64,000 nt of DNA, from the IMG/VR virus record IMGVR_UViG_3300028833_003520. One strand, written 5' to 3'. Under the pieces are notes generated by a model that was not told where the DNA came from, did not search any database, and saw nothing but the letters and a program-made list of their open reading frames with translations. Position numbers and translations under genes: made by a program. Below are positions 11,472 through 64,000 of the stretch, in pieces. Positions within the stretch are counted from its first letter, which is position 1. Each line of letters begins with the position of its first letter. This stretch comes from a virus. Its lineage: Duplodnaviria > Caudoviricetes.

Positions 11472-12157
11472 ACTGCCTCCTGTCCGATAAGTCCACCACA
11501 AGAAGGACACTGCGGTAAGAATCCAATTATTGTTTCAGTAGTGCAGTATTCTCTGCCACAATACTGACAATAATATCTCTTAATCCTTACGCCGTCTTCA
11601 GTAGGAATATCGGTAGTTGTTTTATTCTGTTCGAGGACTGCCTCAGTTTCATCGTCTGCATAGGTATCTTTGACTTCGGCAAGTTCTTTGTCCAGTTGAT
11701 TCTGGTATTCTTCTTTAGCCTGATTGAGAGTATCATCAGTTGGGTTGTTTTGCTTGTACTTTTCATACTCTTCTTTCTCTTTGCGAATAGCATCTTCGAC
11801 TTGTTTAGCAATCTTGTCTCCAATTTTCTCTGCCTGTTCTTTAGCCAAGTTTTCGGCTTTTTGTAAATCTTTTTCAATTTTTGCATTATGCAAATCAGAA
11901 GAAGATTTTGTTTTACGTTTAGGCAGAGAAAAATCGGGAAGTGATATGCTGTAACTATGGGTCGTAAGAGCCATTGCAGTTTTGAATATACCTGTGAAGA
12001 GAAATATGACTCCCATTACGGTGAGAATAGTACCACCAAGTTGTAATATCTTTGGTGGAAATGCGTCACCAAAAAGGGTAGGTGAAGTTGAGCAAATACT
12101 TCCGATGGTAACCATAATAATACCCATAAATAGTGTTAGAATTGGCATACAAATCAT
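11468..12157 (-). CDS. Membrane protein with coiled coil and C-terminal Zn ribbon
   Basis: Two N-terminal hydrophobic segments; CQYC...CPSC. Confidence 0.75.
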   Translation of the reverse strand: MICMPILTLFMGIIMVTIGSICSTSPTLFGDAFPPKILQLGGTILTVMGVIFLFTGIFKTAMALTTHSYSISLPDFSLPKRKTKSSSDLHNAKIEKDLQKAENLAKEQAEKIGDKIAKQVEDAIRKEKEEYEKYKQNNPTDDTLNQAKEEYQNQLDKELAEVKDTYADDETEAVLEQNKTTTDIPTEDGVRIKRYYCQYCGREYCTTETIIGFLPQCPSCGGLIGQEAV

Positions 12158-56787: not shown

Positions 56788-57813
56788 TTAGTCTTCGACT
56801 AAGATGCCGTTACTCATATGGTAACCAGAAGGTGTTCCATACTTGTTCACATAGGATGATACACTCATCGTGTCTCCGCAGGAGCAAGTATAACCTGTTA
56901 TGGTTTTCTTGGTTACTGTCTTGGTCTCTGTACCTAACTGTTCGTAACCAACGATGACTTCCTCCTGGTACGTTTCAGTTGTTGTACCTACCTGAACCTT
57001 GTCTGTGTATGTGGATGCTGAACCTGTATTGTATCTGAGCCAATCTTTCATATTGTTCTTATCACTAAGGTCATCGTCCCACATACCGCTTGACTTCCAC
57101 TCGGCTCTACCGCCATTTTCCCACGCTACGGTTACATCACGACCATTGATATCGAACTGATGGTTCTCATATACAGGAACCTTCTTTGTCTTGGTCTGTG
57201 TTTCGTAAATGGGCTTATCGTAATCGTTAGTTGTACCGTCCTTGGCATACTTCTGTACTGTGACAGTTTCAGTTGTTGTACCGTATGTTGGTGTGTAACT
57301 GTGAGAATGTGCCTGTGTAGGTGCAGTAGTCGGCTCTGCCGTAGGTGTTGCTGTCGGTACAGGTGTCGGAGTGGATGTTGCCTGTGTTGTACCACTTGTA
57401 GGTGCAGTAGTGGGTGCTGTTGTCGGCGTATTTGTCGGTACAGGTGTAGGCGTTGCTGTAGCCTTAGTTGTACCGTTAGTCGGCTGAGTTGTGTTACCAC
57501 TACCACCGTTTGTGGTGCTATTTGTTCCACTGTTTGCTGATGAATTGTTGGTGCTTGAACCGATGGATTCATCTGTATAATCAGTAGAAATATCTACATC
57601 AGAAGCATTTGTGCTCTCATTTGTTTCTGATGTTGTGTTGCCACTTTCGATGGGCGTGCCGTCCTCGTTAGTGGCAATGGTCTCGGTTGTTGATACATCA
57701 ATGGGTGTATCGGTCTTGGTTGACTTGTTGCAGGAAACTACGAGAACGATTACTGCAACTATTGCTATCACGACCATTAAAGAGGCTGTGATTAAGAGAT
57801 ACTTCTTTTTCAT
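56788..57813 (-). CDS. Exported or membrane-anchored Thr/Pro-rich protein
   Basis: N-terminal hydrophobic helix, TPTP linker, HSHSY...C.CG C-terminal domain. Confidence 0.8.
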   Translation of the reverse strand: MKKKYLLITASLMVVIAIVAVIVLVVSCNKSTKTDTPIDVSTTETIATNEDGTPIESGNTTSETNESTNASDVDISTDYTDESIGSSTNNSSANSGTNSTTNGGSGNTTQPTNGTTKATATPTPVPTNTPTTAPTTAPTSGTTQATSTPTPVPTATPTAEPTTAPTQAHSHSYTPTYGTTTETVTVQKYAKDGTTNDYDKPIYETQTKTKKVPVYENHQFDINGRDVTVAWENGGRAEWKSSGMWDDDLSDKNNMKDWLRYNTGSASTYTDKVQVGTTTETYQEEVIVGYEQLGTETKTVTKKTITGYTCSCGDTMSVSSYVNKYGTPSGYHMSNGILVED

Positions 57814-58180
57814 AGTCTTAACTCCTTATTTATCAAAATAATCTTTGTTTTGTACTTTAATGAACTTCTTAAAAAGTTCATTCTAAATACACCTTCAAGG
57901 GTGGAATGGGCAACCGAACAGGTTGTAACTTCGCACGTAGATTTGTGTCAAATCCTCTAATCAGTATTGCTTGTCAAATGCACCAATTTGTCCAAGCAAT
58001 TATTAGTGAGTGCGAACGAACTTTGGGCTGCCGAACCCTTAATCAATTTTAGCACAAAGTTTGTACCAATTGTACCGATATTTGCTTCGAGAAGTCGGAG
58101 CAGAAGTGTCTTAAATTGACATCATTTTGTACTCATAAAATGGTACGGAAATGATGGCGTTTATCGGTGCAATCATTATA

Positions 58181-58357
58181 CGAAACTTGGTTTCGTTGAG
58201 GGCAACCCGAAGACAGTCCAGTGGACTGTTGAGGGCGAGATGCAAGGCATCGAGTGAGGGCTTTCGGAGCCTTTGGCGGAGAAAGTGCGAGCCTTCTCGG
58301 AAGGCGATGCAGGGATGTCGGCTATGCCGACCGCACCGTAAGGTGTGTCATCCCCCC
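58181..58357. other. Cluster of short GC-rich hairpins, mostly triloops (possible single-strand origin or ssDNA signal)
   Basis: Eight adjacent inverted repeats in about 175 nt. Confidence 0.55.
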
Positions 58358-59499
58358 TTATGCCCTTTTATTATTTTCGTCGTTTGAGCGTAAGAGAGAA
58401 CCGAAAATGTCGTTTCAACTAATAAACATAAGGCTTTGCCTTGTTGAAACGTACTAATAAAATCGGGGTGATACTTGTTGAAAATTTCAACATTGTTGAA
58501 GAACCCCCGATTTTATTCACGATTAGCGTGATTAAATTACACAACTTGTTGCGTATTTTGACACGCTGTTGAAATTCACCTGCATTTGGGCGTATTCCGT
58601 ATCGGAATGGCACAAATGGCTCCTGTAGGCGTATATGTTCCCCTTGGGACGTGTACGCTCTGGAGCAATATTGGCGGTGTCCAAAAGCAGACCCAACGGG
58701 TGCGATTGGATGCCAATATTGCGACACCTTGTTAGTCCTATTTGTGTACCGTAAGCGTAAGCGAAGTTTGGTACAAACTTGGTACACAGTTGGTGCAATC
58801 ATAATGAGGTTCGGTCGGTGAATTTTTCACCATTATTTTGCCGAAGTTTGCAACGAAGAAACGGAACAAAGTGAATACGGTTCGGGCATACTGAAAGCAA
58901 AATGAAACTGCTGTTCTTACGCTACGAACTGGTCGTGCCAGTTGCCTCAGTGTAATGCACTGTTAATCATCTAACGCAATGACAATAATTGCGTTGTTTG
59001 GGGAACATCGTGACTTAGTTATTTTTTTTTTTTTGTAATTCGTTCTTTGTTAATCGTCGGGAGCATCGTGACCGACAGTCTGTGTTCCTAATAAGCAGAA
59101 ACTTCTCGTTGTATGTACGAGTTACTCCCTTCCCTGTCTCCAGAAGGCTGAAGAAGTTTTTGCTGTAAAATACGAATAATTACTATTCCAAATTTCAGTT
59201 TATCTGCCAAAGTTCTTTGTGGTGGATGTATTGAATAGTTAATCAATATTCTTTTCACCATCACGTTAAATATGTGCACATTACCTACCCTGCTGGTCTA
59301 TATCCGATTTTATCGGGCTTTGGTATGTTGCACTTAATCCATTTGGTACAAAATGCTGCAAGGTCAACTTATCTAAATTGGTACATAATTGTACCGAAGC
59401 CAAAATTCGTTTCAGGATTTTGATGCTCAATATTTAGTTCAATTATGAGAACTAATGAAATGCTTTGTACGGTTAAAGAATAAAAACCAATAGGTATCA

Positions 59500-60130
59500 C
59501 ATCGTGATAGCGGTTTTGACACAAAATGTCCCAAGAACGACCTTGGGAGTGAGAAGACATTGTGCAAAAAATTGGTTTGTTTCTCAGTACAAAGGTAGGA
59601 CTGAGCGTGTCTGAGTGGTGGGCTTTGCCCAACCAAATCAGAACAAAACGAAGGCTAAAGCGATTTTTAGTTATTCATATATTAAGGGGAGAATAATCTT
59701 ACTGTATAATCTCCGCTTTATCGGGTGAATTTAGGCTGGCATAAATTCGGGGTTGTATAGTTACTCAGGCTTGCATAAAAATCGCAAGCCATCCTTTAAG
59801 ATTATTCGCCTAATCATAATACGAGACTGAATTATCTAACTTACGATGTCATCGTTTGTTTTCTCGGAAATCCAAAATTCTTGATGGGATTCACTGTATT
59901 TGTGGACCATTTTAGTGAATACCGAGATAGAATCATTTTCTGATATAACCGTATTTTGGTGATTAGTCTGATACGATTCATCGTGTCTTAGGGACGACAA
60001 AATGTGGTAACAATTTGCAAAATTTTACCACCAGTGGTCGTTCCCTGGAAATAATCGTTGGGTCTTAATTATTCGAATGAAGACATTCTTTGCAAGAATA
60101 AGCAACGTACCAACAGCGTAGTGAAAAGAA
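59500..60130 (+). ncRNA. Putative structured ncRNA region A (boundaries approximate)
   Basis: No credible ORF; many stems with + strand G-U pairs. Confidence 0.45.
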
Positions 60131-60409
60131 GAGTTAATCTGTCACCAAAATGGGTATTATTTGCTATTTAATAATGCTTTATTAAATATTAAATAATGAA
60201 TTATTATCTATTTAATAAGTAAATAATTATTAGATATTAAGTATTAAATAAATATTTAATAATTCTCGAAAATTATGTAAGCCCGATTGCGTGATTTTCG
60301 GTCCATCATTTTGTAGCATTATTAAGTTATATAAAATGTATTTAATAATGAATTAAAATGATATATTTAATCTATTTAATATGTGTAGTCTAATGCTCTA
60401 TTCTGAATG

Positions 60410-61190
60410 AAAAACCTCGCCGTCTGTATAGCCATACCGACGGGGTTTTGTACGCAGTTTATACGGCACTTCTCGTTGTCCAAACCGTAAGACGGAGATG
60501 TTCGTGAACATCGAGGGTGTTTGGAAATGGAGATATATTTAATCGTTGACGGTTCTACAATCAGGTTCCGTGAGTGGCGGTCAACTTGCTTGACCCCGAT
60601 GAACGGATGTGATTGGAGAAATACTGGCAACTCCAGGTGGCTTGCCAACTGGAGAAGCCAGTATAGTCGCATAATCGTTCGTCTCCAAGAGATTCCCATA
60701 AAAATATTACAAAGGAGAAAAAGAATGCCTTTCAAGTTTGCAGGGGAAGGAAACGAGTACAAGTTTACTCATTTGTGACGCAAACCCCTGCAGACCTGAA
60801 AGGTTGCTTTTGGAAACACGGTGGAGCAACGTGGAACGGTGCTTTCAAAAGACATTCGGTTTCCGACGATTTTTTGTCGAAGGTGTTTTATCTGATTGTC
60901 CTCGACAATCAAGGAAAATGCCGAAAGAGTAATTTAGTATATTCGCAGAATATAATAAATCAAAAAATTTAGGAAATTTTCGACGACTAATATTTTTCAG
61001 ATGGTATTCAATCTGCTTTACAGAGAAATCAAGGATTTCGTACCAAACCTGTGAAACGTATTTGTTATTCAATATGATGCGTGTTCCACAGGTAACTGGG
61101 CTGTAGAGCGTCTGACTGCGACCTTGGATGAAATGCAAGGGCAGTCAGTAGTGTAGCGATAAATGGAGACCTAACGTCCAAAGATGGAGT
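60410..61190 (+). ncRNA. Putative large structured ncRNA B (boundaries approximate)
   Basis: Nested stems with + strand G-U pairs; downstream of an AT-rich tract. Confidence 0.55.
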
Positions 61191-61196
61191 GACGGA

Positions 61197-61244
61197 AAAG
61201 AAAAAAAAAAATGGACTGACTACCATTAAGGTAGCCAATCCATT
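61197..61244 (-). terminator. Intrinsic terminator of the 44-aa gene
   Basis: aatgga.tg.ctacc / ggtag.ca.tccatt stem with U11 on the minus strand. Confidence 0.8.
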
Positions 61245-61262
61245 CTGTTAACTTGTGTTTAC

Positions 61263-61397
61263 TCAATCTTCATCGTAGTTGGGCATCGGTGCCATTGCGA
61301 TTGCCTCAGTAAGTGAATGTGCTTCAACGACTGCGATTACGAAACCGTACTTATCTGTTACTGTGAATGTCTGAAGACCATTATCTGAACTTGCCAT
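61263..61397 (-). CDS. 44-aa protein (not in ORF track)
   Basis: AAGGAGG RBS; MASSDNGLQTFTVTDKYGFVIAVVEAHSLTEAIAMAPMPNYDED; own terminator. Confidence 0.8.
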   Translation of the reverse strand: MASSDNGLQTFTVTDKYGFVIAVVEAHSLTEAIAMAPMPNYDED

Positions 61398-61499
61398 CTC
61401 AAGTTCCTCCTTATATTGTATTTTTGAAGAAAAATCTTCAAGGGTGTTATGAGCGACCGAACAGGTCGCCTGTTACATAAACTCTCTCAAAAACTTAAA

Positions 61500-63860
61500 G
61501 GATGATTTCTATAAGAAGGAATATAAACATCAGACTCGCCTGAAGACTTGTCGGAAGAAAGAAGTCTGCAGTAAAGGAAAGGCAGGCTCGCCTGTAGTGA
61601 TAACGAAAGCAAGAAGTCTGACTTTAAGAATGGGAATAAGGATGACTCGCCTTCTGTTTGCACAAACGAAGAAAGAAGTCAGACTTGTTCATCGGGGTTC
61701 GTTCCTCTTGCGGTGTACCACAGATGAAGCGAACTCTGATAGGCAAAATATTTGACCACTATCTTGCTACGTCAATCGTGTAGTCGCAGAGGATGGTGAT
61801 GTAGGCTTTCGTTAAGAAAGGCATAAGAACCTACCGCTGCGTAAACGATATGTTTTGCGATAATTATTTAATAGTCTGGCGTGGTCGCTTTTTCACCTTT
61901 GGTGGAAAGGAGCGACCTTTAAGCCGCAAGCGAAAGCATAAGAGTGCGTTCTGAAGAAATTGGCTAAAGGACAATTTCCTCTATTGGTCAAATATAAAGC
62001 CTATGAAGAAGGGACGAACTTCTTCTCATTATCTGACTCGTCAGTGTTGTTTCCTTAAGAGCGTGGATTCTGCTCCACTGACCGAACGACTGAGCCAGCG
62101 AAGGAAAGTGAGAGTGGGCAGAATGGAACTGCTCGAAGGAAACAAGTAATTGGTTAATAACAAGGTTCGCTATATAAACGATATTCAAATTGTTCCGAAC
62201 CGATTATGAAGTTCGCTCTGTTGCCAAAGGATTTGCTTGTCAAAGCCTTGGCTGTACTTAATCTCGTTGAACTGGAAACCAACCCTACCCTTAGTTGATT
62301 TCCGTCACCAAGACTACTTAATCTTCAACGATACATAAAGAACTTAGGTTAGACTATGATTATTTTGCTGTAAAAGATAAATCTATAAGATTTATCTCGT
62401 TAATCGAGGAAAGATTCAGTTATTCAACCGACCTGTTTTGAGTTTTCCGAAGATAACGGGAAACCGAGTCTGAAAGACGAATTTGCCTTATTTTCGGAAA
62501 ACAATGTTGACACTAATTGTTAATCACAGGTTATCAATCTTATACTTTGAGATTGTGCGTGTTTATCACGCAATTGCAGAGCAATTAGTTCTTCTAAACC
62601 TCTCGAATAGGTAACTTTTATCTTTGGCGGTATAAAAGTTAACTATGTTACATCAATTGTTTGTTAATCGGTGCTTATCAATCGGTAAGTTATAAGTGTT
62701 ACAAAAACCGTTATCAGTTTTTGATTTATCAAGTAGGTGAAGGCACCCTGTCGTGGGCGTAATTATATGTAGCCCTACAGAAGTGGTGCCTGAACCAAAA
62801 TAAGGATAAAGCGAGCCGTGCACGACTCCTTTATCCGCTATCACAGATTCGAATAAAACGAATCGTATTGAGGCTTTTGTCTTAAAGGATAGTGCCTAAC
62901 TCGCCTGAAGCGTTGCGTCAAGAAAGAAGTTAGGCACTTTAGTTTGACACGTCTTGGCTACGATTCATCGTGTCAGGTTGAAAATGAGTCCAGGCGTAGC
63001 CTTGACGCATTTTATTGTTACAAAGGAGTGCGATTGCATATCGCACCAACTTTAAGTGTCAATTGTTCACTATAAACTTTTATAAAAAGTTGTTAAACCT
63101 TTGCACGGATAGTCTTTTTACGAGTTTATCGTGCCGTTTTCTACGGACAAGGCACACTGATAAGTGTGACAGGACGTGGAAAATGATGAATAATGAGTTT
63201 GACTTAGGCACAGAGAGCAATAGCGAACGCCGTGACTAACAAAGAACGAATGAAATAAGAGGCAAGCATAAATGTGAAGCCGTATAGATGCAAAGTGTTT
63301 TACGAGGGGCTTGGGAAACAATGACTTATCTTCTTATCTACGATTTATCGTGCAAAAACTCCTCGGCGTAAACTCTGCTGTACGAAGAATGAGAAAGCAG
63401 GTGCCTCGCTGAGGAGTTTTGTTGAAATTAAGTATGGAGATAGCATCAATCACGTAGTTTTACTGCGTAGGTATTTATTTTATCATTGAAAGACGATAAC
63501 GGAATACGTTCATCAAAAGAAGCCCATACACGAGGCTTCGCCTATTAAGTCATTGTTTCTTTTTACTGGTGATTAGTGATTCAATTTGCACTATGTCGGG
63601 ATTTGTCTTGTGCTACGGAGCCTCTCGGCGAAGGTTCAGGACGAAGAGTCACTATATTTTGCGACAATCTTGCAAAATTGGCTCCCAACGACTTTGGTGA
63701 GAGTTGGGGTGGGGTAAACGGTATTTATGACTTGTGACTCGTACACAATGTCAAATAAGTGATTTCGATGTTATTGCTGCTGGTCAGCAAATTATTAACT
63801 GTGACAGTTAATAATTTTGGTGTAATCAAAACGGAGTTGGAAGCCAACTGTTCAGTGCTT
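61500..63860 (+). ncRNA. Putative very large structured ncRNA(s), region C (boundaries approximate)
   Basis: Dense stems, GNRA loops, 14-16 bp helices including long-range ones, repeated modules, + strand G-U pairs. Confidence 0.6.
61531..61681 (+). repeat. Three tandem stem-loop modules RCT-CGCCT...AG-(A/C)AAGA-AGT; fourth copy at 62892-62937
   Basis: Directly visible with co-varying outer stems. Confidence 0.8.
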
Positions 63861-63873
63861 GAGAAATCTTAAG

Positions 63874-63918
63874 AAAAAAAAAGCCTACAATATCGTCGCA
63901 GACGGTATCATAGGCTTT
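63874..63918 (-). terminator. Intrinsic terminator of a gene beyond the right edge
   Basis: aaagccta...taggcttt stem with U9 on the minus strand. Confidence 0.7.
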
Positions 63919-64000
63919 AAGGCTTTGTTAGATAGAAGTCAAATTCCTTGTTTTATGCTGTATGGGTGTAAACAACAAAACTTCTATAAACACTTTAGTT

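What the first reader, a model, noticed from the sequence alone, without database searches (positions are those of the whole stretch)
61531..62937. Four copies of an unexplained RNA module (helix, CGC/AAAGA internal loop, purine-rich loop, short hairpin)
Seen: cagact-cgc-ctgaagacttgtcggaag-aaaga-agtctg (61531-61568); caggct-cgc-ctgtagtgataacgaaag-caaga-agtctg (61583-61620); tgact-cgc-cttctgtttgcacaaacgaag-aaaga-agtca (61643-61681); gtgcctaact-cgc-ctgaagcgttgcgtcaag-aaaga-agttaggcac (62892-62937). The outer stems differ yet always pair (one G-U on the + strand). The CGC and (A/C)AAGA loop strands are conserved and the inner arm is 18, 18, 21 and 18 nt. Copies 1-2 have GAA/GGA and GUA/GAA opposed, which resembles a loop-E/tandem GA motif. 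The first three copies are joined by purine-rich linkers. Inference: a multivalent protein-binding or sponge array, an RNA-RNA docking motif, or a decoy analogous to the repeated RNA antitoxins of type III toxin-antitoxin systems, which some phages mimic.
Basis: partly seen in the sequence, partly recalled or inferred. Interest (0 to 1): 0.8.

Follow-up and report, generated by a model that had tools for sequence, protein, structure and literature searches.

The report
Four-copy hairpin with fixed internal loop
Four copies of a roughly 40-base hairpin, with stems that vary freely and an unchanging lopsided internal loop, sit on one strand of a 6-kb gene-poor, heavily folded stretch of a 243-kb mobile element; they look like docking sites for one unknown protein and match no described RNA or DNA signal family.

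Summary
Four modules lie on the + strand at 61531-68, 61583-620, 61643-81 and 62892-937 (4 found, 0.02 expected by chance). Each has an outer stem, a CGC / (A/C)AAGA internal loop, and a variable inner hairpin. Two outer-stem pairs covary among the copies.

Two relatives that are 95-97% identical keep all four copies, and their changes fall only at wobble or variable loop positions. A relative with an 81%-identical flanking protein lacks the module. So do three complete distant relatives, IMG/VR, JGI metagenomes and 185,000 species genomes. Rfam has no match, including ToxI, CptI and TenpI.

The modules sit in a 6.2-kb ORF-poor island. Substitutions there preserve + strand pairing: transitions create G.U on + 55 times against 23 on - (p=0.0004), and there are 14 compensatory double changes.

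The host replicon looks more like a conjugative megaplasmid than a phage, and + is the template strand of nearly all its genes. I could not decide whether the fold acts as + sense RNA (about 0.38) or as + strand single-stranded DNA (about 0.30). In either case the best reading is a protein-recognition hairpin read through its internal loop. The type III antitoxin idea is rejected. The family is new but confined to one lineage. No expression data could be obtained.

The parts
61531..61568 (+). Module copy 1: P1 CAGACU/AGUCUG, loop CGC / AAAGA, P2 of 18 nt (C-G, U-A, GAA/GGA, G-C, A-U, loop CUUG)
   Evidence: 52.1 bits. It is identical in L185. L187 changes one inner-loop G to A at 61554.
61583..61620 (+). 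Module copy 2: P1 CAGGCU/AGUCUG with one G.U, loop CGC / CAAGA, P2 of 18 nt; P1 extends through AAAG/CUUU in the flanks
   Evidence: 52.5 bits. The G.U is A-U in L185 (61586). The apical loop has A to G in L187 (61600).
61643..61681 (+). Module copy 3: P1 UGACU/AGUCA, loop CGC / AAAGA, P2 of 21 nt, fully Watson-Crick with one bulged U; P1 extends through UAAG/CUUG after a GA/GA mismatch
   Evidence: 45.1 bits. It is unchanged in L185 and L187.
62892..62937 (+). Module copy 4: P1 of 10-11 continuous pairs, loop CGC / AAAGA, P2 of 18 nt with a 3-nt apical loop
   Evidence: 51.5 bits. Only the apical loop changes in L185 (62912-13).
61569..61642 (+). Span from the end of copy 1 to the start of copy 3; it contains copy 2 (61583-61620) and the two purine-rich linkers (61569-61582 and 61621-61642), which carry the outer-stem extensions and AAGG(A) motifs
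   Evidence: The changes at 61569-70 in L185 and L187 lengthen the extension of copy 1. A segment resembling the second linker is also present in L186, which has no modules.
57814..63996 (+). Context: a 6.2-kb ORF-poor, highly folded island that holds the modules; its only called gene is a 44-aa ORF on - (61263-61397)
   Evidence: gene map; mean z about -2; + strand wobble asymmetry and compensatory changes.

Best explanation
The four modules are recognition hairpins in + sense RNA made from the gene-poor island. The stems only need to pair. One protein, from the element or the host, reads the invariant asymmetric internal loop (5' CGC against 3' (A/C)AAGA) together with its fixed closing pairs (A-U, C-G, U-A below; C-G, U-A above). 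Each hairpin is about two helical turns long with the loop near the middle. This is the layout of phage RNase III-type processing or stabiliser signals, in which an internal loop restricts cleavage to one strand. The most concrete version is therefore that three tandem sites and one distal site mark where a long untranslated transcript is bound or cut. Shown: the module exists, its stems covary, its loop is invariant, and the + strand of the island is the one under pairing selection. Inferred: that the folded molecule is RNA, that a protein reads the loop, and what binding achieves.
For: Four copies against 0.02 expected by chance. The CM separates them from everything else in the window. P1 covaries, and 97.5% of cells pair across 12 copies. 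In strains that are 3-5% diverged, the five changes inside the modules fall only at a G.U<->A-U position, an inner mismatch, or apical loops; none fall in the roughly 76 nt of conserved loop and closing pairs. Island-wide, among 278 substitutions, transitions in Watson-Crick pairs give G.U on + 55 times and on - 23 times (p=0.0004). The bias holds even in helices predicted on - (35 against 16). The matching substitution classes at unpaired sites run 39:32. There are 14 compensatory double changes, and 61792/61834 shows a G-C, G.U, A-U series across the three genomes. As RNA the modules fold at -9 to -18 kcal/mol, but as DNA modules 1-3 reach only -4 to -6. E. coli RNase III substrates are typically two helical turns long, and internal loops limit cleavage to one strand, leaving protective 3' hairpins (PMC1540722). 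Phage SP82 carries targets of B. subtilis RNase III (PMC4838370).
Against: No good sigma-A-type + promoter lies upstream; the best candidate is TTGCCA-17-TATTGT at 9 of 12. Promoter-like and terminator-like sites on the - strand bracket the modules. GNRA tetraloops, the usual mark of large folded RNAs, are not enriched: 2 of 23. Copies 1-2 are marginal folds. The inner stem of 7-8 layers is shorter than in classical RNase III sites, and no cistrons flank the modules. None of 76 window proteins scanned has an RNA-binding or RNase III domain. The wobble asymmetry fits + strand ssDNA equally well. The module is absent from the next relative, L186, so it is not essential to this type of element.
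Confidence: 0.38

Rival explanations
1. The same hairpins act as single-stranded DNA on the + strand. This is the template strand of nearly all genes and probably the strand exposed during conjugative transfer or origin unwinding. An enzyme of the element, such as a primase/helicase or its own RNA polymerase, recognises shape plus the fixed unpaired bases. The precedents are N4 virion-RNAP hairpin promoters and plasmid single-strand initiation (ssi) sites. In this reading the three tandem hairpins resemble a G4-type ssi signal next to the replication module.
For: Distant relatives carry a VirD4/TraG-type coupling protein and give no terminase, HK97 capsid or portal match. Nearly all genes are on -, so + is the template. 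A second + strand hairpin family with a GAACA loop sits 62 nt from module 1 and ahead of both - genes of the island. Earlier notes of the scan read that family as N4-like ssDNA promoters. 'Variable stems, fixed unpaired bases' is how N4 promoters are built (PMC4496689). The island also holds an AT-rich repeat block and recurrent dsDNA-type motifs, and it lies next to D5-type helicase/primase and RecJ genes. There is no sigma-A + promoter and no GNRA enrichment. Module stems are almost entirely Watson-Crick.
Against: As DNA, modules 1-3 are worth only -4 to -6 kcal/mol with z of -0.2 to -1, which is weak against SSB. No conserved primase start triplet flanks the copies. Pairing selection across six kilobases, with many wobble intermediates, is far more than any known ssDNA signal needs. 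Under the conjugation reading, the leading-type region and the hairpin promoters noted earlier lie about 146 kb away, not here. The replicon's identity rests on distant relatives and on unchecked notes.
Confidence: 0.3
2. The modules work in - sense RNA. They would form part of a long 5' leader of the 44-aa gene (copies 1-3) and of a small RNA of about 250 nt ending at the 62836-62805 terminator (copy 4). The exposed pyrimidine tract ACUUCUUUCUU would act as an anti-Shine-Dalgarno seed.
For: Promoter-like sites on - at 61775-61747 and 63096-63069, together with - strand terminators at 61246-61208 and 62836-62805, bracket the modules. The element's RBS consensus is (A/U)AAAGGAGA(A), and the tract can pair over 9 or more bases with 17 of 86 RBS regions. 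Copy 4 folds better on - under the nearest-neighbour model.
Against: The copy 2 stem has an A.C mismatch on - in two of three genomes. The neighbouring helices and the whole island favour + pairing, 29 against 10 in the 60.8-62.8 kb bins. Shuffled pyrimidine seeds do as well as the real tract in 8% of trials. Copy 2 carries a G inside the tract. L186 keeps the small gene but has no modules.
Confidence: 0.12
3. The module is an RNA tertiary-contact or assembly motif, an A-rich loop receptor, reused inside one or more giant folded RNAs of the island.
For: The island is as folded as known ornate RNAs, with z about -2. The loop is A-rich and asymmetric. Large phage and plasmid RNAs such as GOLLD and ROOL assemble through repeated contacts (10.1101/2024.12.08.627333).
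Against: Three copies sit in tandem, joined by short single-stranded purine linkers, and are not embedded in a larger domain. No partner loop is conserved, GNRA loops are not enriched, and Rfam gives no GOLLD or ROOL match.
Confidence: 0.05
4. The copies are relics of local duplication, or a small selfish palindromic element, with no present function.
For: The module is confined to one lineage of strains at least 95% identical and is absent from L186. A linker-like segment is duplicated in the window. The fold of copies 1-2 is marginal.
Against: The stems have diverged by compensatory change while 19 nt of loop and closing pairs stay invariant in all copies and strains. There are no copies elsewhere in 64 kb or in any collection scanned. 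All copies share one orientation.
Confidence: 0.08
5. The array is a decoy or antitoxin of a type III toxin-antitoxin system.
For: It consists of repeated short structured units in a mobile element.
Against: Rfam gives no ToxI, CptI or TenpI match even at E 5. The units are not identical, the spacing is 52, 60 and 1249 nt, and no endoribonuclease gene lies downstream on +.
Confidence: 0.02

Closest known systems
Phage RNase III processing signals (T7 R1.1 type; SP82 sites for B. subtilis RNase III)
   Same: They are several hairpins per genome, each about two helical turns long, with an internal loop near the middle and sequence conserved around the loop while the stems differ. The loop limits cleavage to one strand and leaves a protective 3' hairpin (PMC1540722, PMC4838370).
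   Different: No sequence similarity was tested or is known. The upper stem here is shorter, at 7-8 layers. The sites do not separate cistrons. Three of them lie 52-60 nt apart. Cleavage is untested.
Early hairpin promoters P1-P3 of coliphage N4, read by the injected virion RNA polymerase
   Same: They are small hairpins on one strand, three per genome. Conserved bases are read directly, and the other stem bases only need to pair (PMC4496689). The strand bearing the hairpin is the template strand.
   Different: N4 hairpins have a 5-7 bp stem, and the fixed bases are in a 3-nt apical loop. Here the fixed bases form a 3x5 internal loop in a two-stem hairpin. No gene lies directly downstream of three of the four copies, and the DNA fold is weak.
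Single-strand initiation signals of plasmids and phages (G4-type three-hairpin ssi; RSF1010 ssiA/ssiB), cited from my own knowledge
   Same: They are clustered hairpins in ssDNA next to a replication region, they are orientation-specific, and a primase recognises them.
   Different: No primase start site was identified here. A fourth copy lies 1.2 kb away. Nothing shows that the region is a replication origin.
ToxI, CptI and TenpI antitoxin RNAs of type III toxin-antitoxin systems
   Same: They are repeated short RNA units carried on mobile elements.
   Different: Those are identical tandem direct repeats placed directly upstream of their toxin gene. Neither condition holds here, and the Rfam models do not match.
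CsrB/RsmZ-type protein sponges
   Same: They present several hairpins with purine-rich single-stranded linkers containing GGA.
   Different: In sponges the conserved GGA sits in hairpin loops. Here the conserved element is CGC / AAAGA, and the GGA motifs lie in the linkers and are not all conserved between strains.
Kink-turn
   Same: It is an asymmetric internal loop with a three-base bulge candidate followed by G-A on the long strand.
   Different: The position that must be A, opposite the first G, is C. The register also conflicts with the covarying P1 pairs.

Membership tests
Type III TA antitoxin RNA (ToxI/CptI/TenpI) | Match to the family covariance models | tested here: not met
   Rfam 15 gave no match at gathering score over the whole window, and none at E up to 5 over 57500-64000.
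Type III TA antitoxin RNA (ToxI/CptI/TenpI) | Near-identical tandem direct repeats of fixed period | tested here: not met
   The copies are 74-76% identical to one another and are spaced 52, 60 and 1249 nt apart.
Type III TA antitoxin RNA (ToxI/CptI/TenpI) | Endoribonuclease toxin gene directly downstream on the same strand | tested here: not met
   No + strand ORF above 52 aa lies between 61.5 and 64 kb. No such domain was found among the window proteins scanned.
Kink-turn | Three-nucleotide bulge followed by tandem sheared G.A and A.G pairs | tested here: not met
   Read from the sequence. On the long strand AAA-GA fits, but the opposite strand has C-G-C where G-A is required, and one extra base breaks the register with P1.
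RNase III processing signal of the phage type | About two helical turns of duplex with an internal loop at the cleavage position | tested here: inconclusive
   The lower stem is about 10-11 layers in copies 2-4 and 8-10 in copy 1, followed by a 3x5 loop and an upper stem of 7-8 layers. The upper stem is shorter than in classical sites.
RNase III processing signal of the phage type | Cleavage by RNase III; transcript ends at the loop | not testable with these tools
   No reads were available.
N4-type single-strand hairpin promoter | Template-strand hairpin with fixed contact bases and freely varying stem bases | tested here: met
   + is the template strand of the surrounding genes. The stems covary and the loop is invariant.
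N4-type single-strand hairpin promoter | Transcription start a fixed short distance downstream, heading a gene; a dedicated polymerase | tested here: inconclusive
   Only the 44-aa gene lies downstream of copies 1-3, and it has its own GAACA-loop hairpin closer to it. The element's polymerase is known to me only from earlier notes.
G4-type or RSF1010-type ssi signal | Stable ssDNA hairpins that resist SSB, with a defined primase start site | tested here: inconclusive
   The DNA folds of copies 1-3 are weak, at -4 to -6 kcal/mol. The flanks share no start triplet.
CsrA/RsmA sponge RNA | Conserved GGA in hairpin loops | tested here: not met
   The apical loops are CUUG, GAUA, GCAC and GUU, and they vary between strains.
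Any Rfam 15 family | Covariance-model match | tested here: not met

The most novel reading that the evidence does not exclude
The module is the docking signal of a still unknown nucleic-acid-protein machine of giant rumen mobile elements. In one version it is a second class of shape-read single-strand DNA signal, used by the element's own polymerase or primase. In the other it is the protein-loading unit of a cluster of kilobase-sized non-coding RNAs. In either version the 6-kb island would be a new kind of functional non-coding locus.
Probability: 0.2. Interest if true: 0.8.

Novelty: new variant of a known kind. Interest (0 to 1): 0.55.

Why it matters
Hairpins with free stems and fixed unpaired bases are how proteins recognise folded single strands: N4 promoters, integron attC sites, RNase III signals, boxB. 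This module is a clean example that has not been described. It has its own loop sequence and lies in a 6-kb stretch that is under measurable selection for folding on one strand. Finding the reader protein would show whether giant rumen mobile elements make large non-coding RNAs or use extensive folded-DNA signalling. It would also provide a compact orthogonal hairpin-protein pair. The module's narrow distribution, one lineage only, limits how general the result would be.

Tried and rejected
1. Alternative genetic codes. None of TGA=W, TAG=Q or TAA=Q opens the island.

2. Rfam at gathering and at permissive thresholds. Only snoRNA noise appeared.

3. Exact-pattern scans of IMG/VR, JGI and ENA metagenomes, and one genome per prokaryote species. 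Every hit is single-copy, and nearly all lack the stem, so they are chance matches.

4. The CM on three complete distant relatives and on L186. No hit.

5. blastn of the island against 50,697 phage records. No match.

6. Peptide-repeat reading of the modules. Copy 2 contains a stop, and L185 changes three consecutive codons of the 61685 ORF.

7. REP-like or MITE-like spread. There are no copies elsewhere.

8. Hairpin ribozyme, tetraloop receptor, SRP domain IV and lambda boxB resemblances, judged from memory. Each shares only a short purine run and lacks the partner strand, and none has Rfam support.

9. CsrA sponge. GGA motifs lie in the linkers only and are partly lost in the strains.

10. 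Anti-Shine-Dalgarno seed on the - strand. It does not beat shuffled seeds, p about 0.08.

11. Search for an RNA-binding or RNase III protein among 76 window proteins. None found.

12. Sequencing-run search for expression.

13. Loop statistics (GNRA, UNCG, GNA) to separate RNA from DNA. Uninformative.

14. RNAalifold on three near-identical genomes prefers competing long-range pairings for copies 1-2. There is too little divergence to decide between them.
Full report
**What is there.** A loose pattern for the two conserved strands finds four matches in 64 kb, all on +, against 0.02 expected. Aligned, the invariant letters are CUCGCCU on the 5' side and AAG-(A/C)AAGA-AGU on the 3' side.

The fold has four parts:
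- An outer stem P1 that always ends A-U, C-G, U-A.
- An internal loop of 3 nt (CGC) opposite 5 nt ((A/C)AAGA).
- An inner stem P2 that always begins C-G, U-A.
- A variable arm of 18-21 nt that forms a short hairpin of unrelated sequence in each copy.

Copy 2 continues through AAAG/CUUU and copy 3 through UAAG/CUUG after small mismatches, and copy 4 has 10-11 continuous pairs. Copy 1 extends less: two pairs past a 2x2 mismatch here, three past a 1x1 mismatch in L185 and L187. Copies 2-4 are therefore about two helical turns long with the loop near the middle, and copy 1 is slightly shorter.

A covariance model of the four scores them 45-52 bits, and nothing else in the window exceeds 12 bits.

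**Is it more than chance or recent duplication?** Among the copies, two P1 positions change on both sides (A-U to U-A, G-C to A-U) and one changes by wobble. Across 12 copies from three genomes, 97.5% of cells pair. The covariation score beats all 500 shuffles and all slid registers.

The paralogues share almost nothing in P2 apart from the ability to pair, while 19 nt of loop and closing pairs are identical in all of them. That pattern indicates selection on pairing plus direct readout of the loop. It does not fit a recent duplication.

Thermodynamically, copies 3 and 4 are good RNA hairpins. Copies 1 and 2 are marginal, with z of -0.5 and -0.7, and copy 1 has a competing fold.

**Relatives.**
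- The window belongs to a 243,445-bp contig.
- A 3.8-kb JGI contig is 99.97% identical.
- Two Logan contigs are 96.8% (L185, window 61014-64000) and 94.9% (L187, window 57837-64000) identical. Both keep all four modules.
- The five differences inside modules are: the P1 G.U of copy 2 becoming A-U; one purine-purine mismatch in the P2 of copy 1; and apical-loop bases of copies 2 and 4. None touches the conserved loop or the closing pairs.
- The next relative, L186, is a 222-kb contig whose flanking protein is 81% identical. It has a 4.5-kb island of which only three short parts align, and it has no module. It does keep the small gene (42% identity) and the two hairpins next to it.
- Three complete distant relatives have none.
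- Exact-pattern scans of IMG/VR, metagenomes and one genome per species returned only single chance hits, nearly all without stems.
- Rfam has nothing.

The family is real but confined to one narrow lineage.

**The setting.** Positions 57814 to about 63996 contain no credible gene except a 44-aa ORF on - (61263-61397), which has a Shine-Dalgarno site and a terminator. No alternative genetic code opens the region. Windows of 120 nt fold with a mean z near -2 on both strands.

I compared the window with L187 and L185, which gave 278 distinct substitutions. In positions predicted to be Watson-Crick paired, single transitions create a G.U on the + strand 55 times and on the - strand 23 times (binomial p = 0.0004). 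The bias holds for helices predicted on the - strand (35 against 16) and in every 1-kb bin. The corresponding substitution classes at unpaired positions run 39:32. Fourteen pairs changed on both sides and stayed paired. One pair shows G-C, G.U and A-U in the three genomes (61792/61834). A hairpin at 62442-62502 has five or six compensatory pairs.

The + strand of the island is therefore the strand whose fold is under selection, including the part that carries the modules. It shows selection on the + fold, not transcription.

**RNA or DNA?** I first took the replicon for a jumbo phage, on PHROG hits to primase, RecJ, NrdD and clamp loader. Earlier notes of this scan read it as a conjugative-type megaplasmid with its own RNA polymerase and with template-strand hairpin promoters.

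My partial check gives the following:
- The three complete distant relatives carry a VirD4/TraG-type coupling protein.
- They have no TerL, HK97 capsid or portal match.
- They also lack a VirB4-like AAA_10 match.

Nearly all genes are on -, so + is their template strand. GAACA-loop hairpins of the kind those notes describe sit at 57910-24 and 61453-69, ahead of the two - genes, the second one 62 nt from module 1. Wobble-tolerant selection on + is expected for + sense RNA and equally for + strand ssDNA.

For RNA:
- Modules 1-3 are worth -9 to -14 kcal/mol as RNA but only -4 to -6 as DNA.
- Six kilobases of pairing selection is far more than known ssDNA signals need.

For DNA:
- There is no convincing sigma-A + promoter.
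- GNRA loops are not enriched.
- The design of free stems with fixed unpaired bases matches N4 hairpin promoters (PMC4496689).
- A replication-gene neighbourhood, an AT-rich repeat block and recurrent dsDNA-type motifs lie close by.

I could not obtain reads. I put + RNA at about 0.38 and + ssDNA at about 0.30.

**How it most likely works.** Under either chemistry the anatomy points to one reader protein. That protein would need a helix of about one turn below and a short helix above, and would contact the asymmetric loop and its closing pairs.

In the RNA version the closest working analogy is the phage RNase III processing signal. Those are several hairpins per genome, about two turns long, with an internal loop that restricts cleavage to one strand and leaves a stabilising 3' hairpin (PMC1540722; SP82 sites are cited in PMC4838370). 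Three tandem sites plus one 1.2 kb further on would then bind or cut a long untranslated transcript. The differences are a shorter upper stem, no flanking cistrons, and no test of cleavage.

In the DNA version the analogies are N4 early promoters and plasmid ssi sites. The differences are that the fixed bases sit in an internal rather than an apical loop, and that the DNA fold is weak.

**Rejected or weak readings.**
- Type III antitoxin: no model match, no regular identical repeats, no toxin gene.
- Kink-turn: the base opposite the first G is C, and the register clashes with P1.
- Loop E or tandem GA: not conserved among the copies.
- CsrA sponge: GGA lies only in the linkers.
- A - sense leader or small RNA with an anti-Shine-Dalgarno tract. 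This one has promoter-like and terminator-like sites in its favour, and the tract resembles the complement of the element's RBS consensus. However, shuffled pyrimidine seeds do as well in 8% of trials, copy 2 has an A.C mismatch on -, and the local substitution pattern favours +. I leave it at 0.12.

**Verdict.** The module is a new, lineage-restricted example of a known design principle. Its partner, its chemistry (RNA or DNA) and its function are open.

Noticed in passing
window 57814-63996: The whole 6.2-kb ORF-poor island is under selection for + strand pairing: 55 against 23 wobble-creating transitions, 14 compensatory double changes, mean fold z about -2. It matches no Rfam family. Divergence between strains is very uneven, from 0.8% at 57.8-58.8 kb to 12% at 59.1-59.3 kb.
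   Followed up: partly
window 62442-62502: A hairpin whose stem sequence is almost entirely replaced between the window, L185 and L187, with five or six pairs kept by compensatory change. It gives the clearest covariation in the island.
   Followed up: partly
window 58141-58575: The most conserved part of the island. It is 81% identical to L186 over 439 nt, a 65-nt core is 78% identical to the distant relative L121 (18881-18945), and it is nearly invariant among close strains. It is GC-rich, consists of short perfect hairpins, and has no known family.
   Followed up: partly
window 57893-57923 and 61436-61466: A 31-nt box, 87% identical between its two copies, that holds a GAACA-loop hairpin with covarying stems. 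It lies ahead of the 341-aa and 44-aa genes, which are both on -. L186 has a hairpin of different sequence, with a GTATA loop, at the same place. Earlier notes read this family as template-strand promoters.
   Followed up: partly
window 60140-60400; L186 13478-13620: An AT-rich block of degenerate TATTTAATAA-type repeats at a 22-nt period. It is conserved in position in L186 and varies little between strains. It could be an unwinding or iteron region of a replication origin.
   Followed up: no
window 59972-59985, 62959-62972, 63339-63352: An oriented hairpin TACGA-N4-TCGTG occurs three times on + in the island. With up to two mismatches allowed there are 5 matches against about 1 expected. One copy lies 21 nt after module 4. 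The heptamer CATCGTG recurs five times.
   Followed up: partly
window 61110-61150: A hairpin with similar architecture, CUGACUG-CGA-CCUUG...CAAGG-G-CAGUCAG, that may be a degenerate fifth copy (CM 9.4 bits). L185 deletes one C and changes the facing G, which removes one pair cleanly.
   Followed up: partly
window 57942-57959, 58558, 59508-59525, 62507, 62944; L186 island: The motif TTTGACACAAA / TTTGTGTCAAA recurs in both orientations in this island, and TTGACAC / TGTGTCA recurs in the L186 island, as a dsDNA-binding protein site would. TTGGTAC sites also cluster at 58.06, 58.77 and 59.35 kb.
   Followed up: no
window 63789-63817: A 29-bp near-perfect palindrome (ATTATTAACTGT-G-ACAGTTAATAAT) just inside the right edge of the island, resembling an operator. 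L185 has a one-base insertion at its centre.
   Followed up: no
L186 about 11671-11685, 11905-11920 and 12046-12101: The more distant relative has its own recurrent motif in its island, GTCTTGT / CTTGTCT, at three or four sites. Two of them read as CAG-TCTTGT-CTG hairpins with different outer stems.
   Followed up: no
G001-G003 (IMG/VR records behind L121-L123): These records are labelled viral and 100% complete with terminal repeats. They carry a VirD4/TraG-type coupling protein inside 1400-aa frames and give no terminase, HK97 capsid or portal match. They may be plasmids misfiled as viruses.
   Followed up: partly
window 61263-61397 (-): The only gene in the island encodes a 44-aa acidic protein with a strong RBS and a 17-bp terminator. 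A 93%-identical variant occurs in L185 and a 42%-identical homologue in L186. It has no family.
   Followed up: partly
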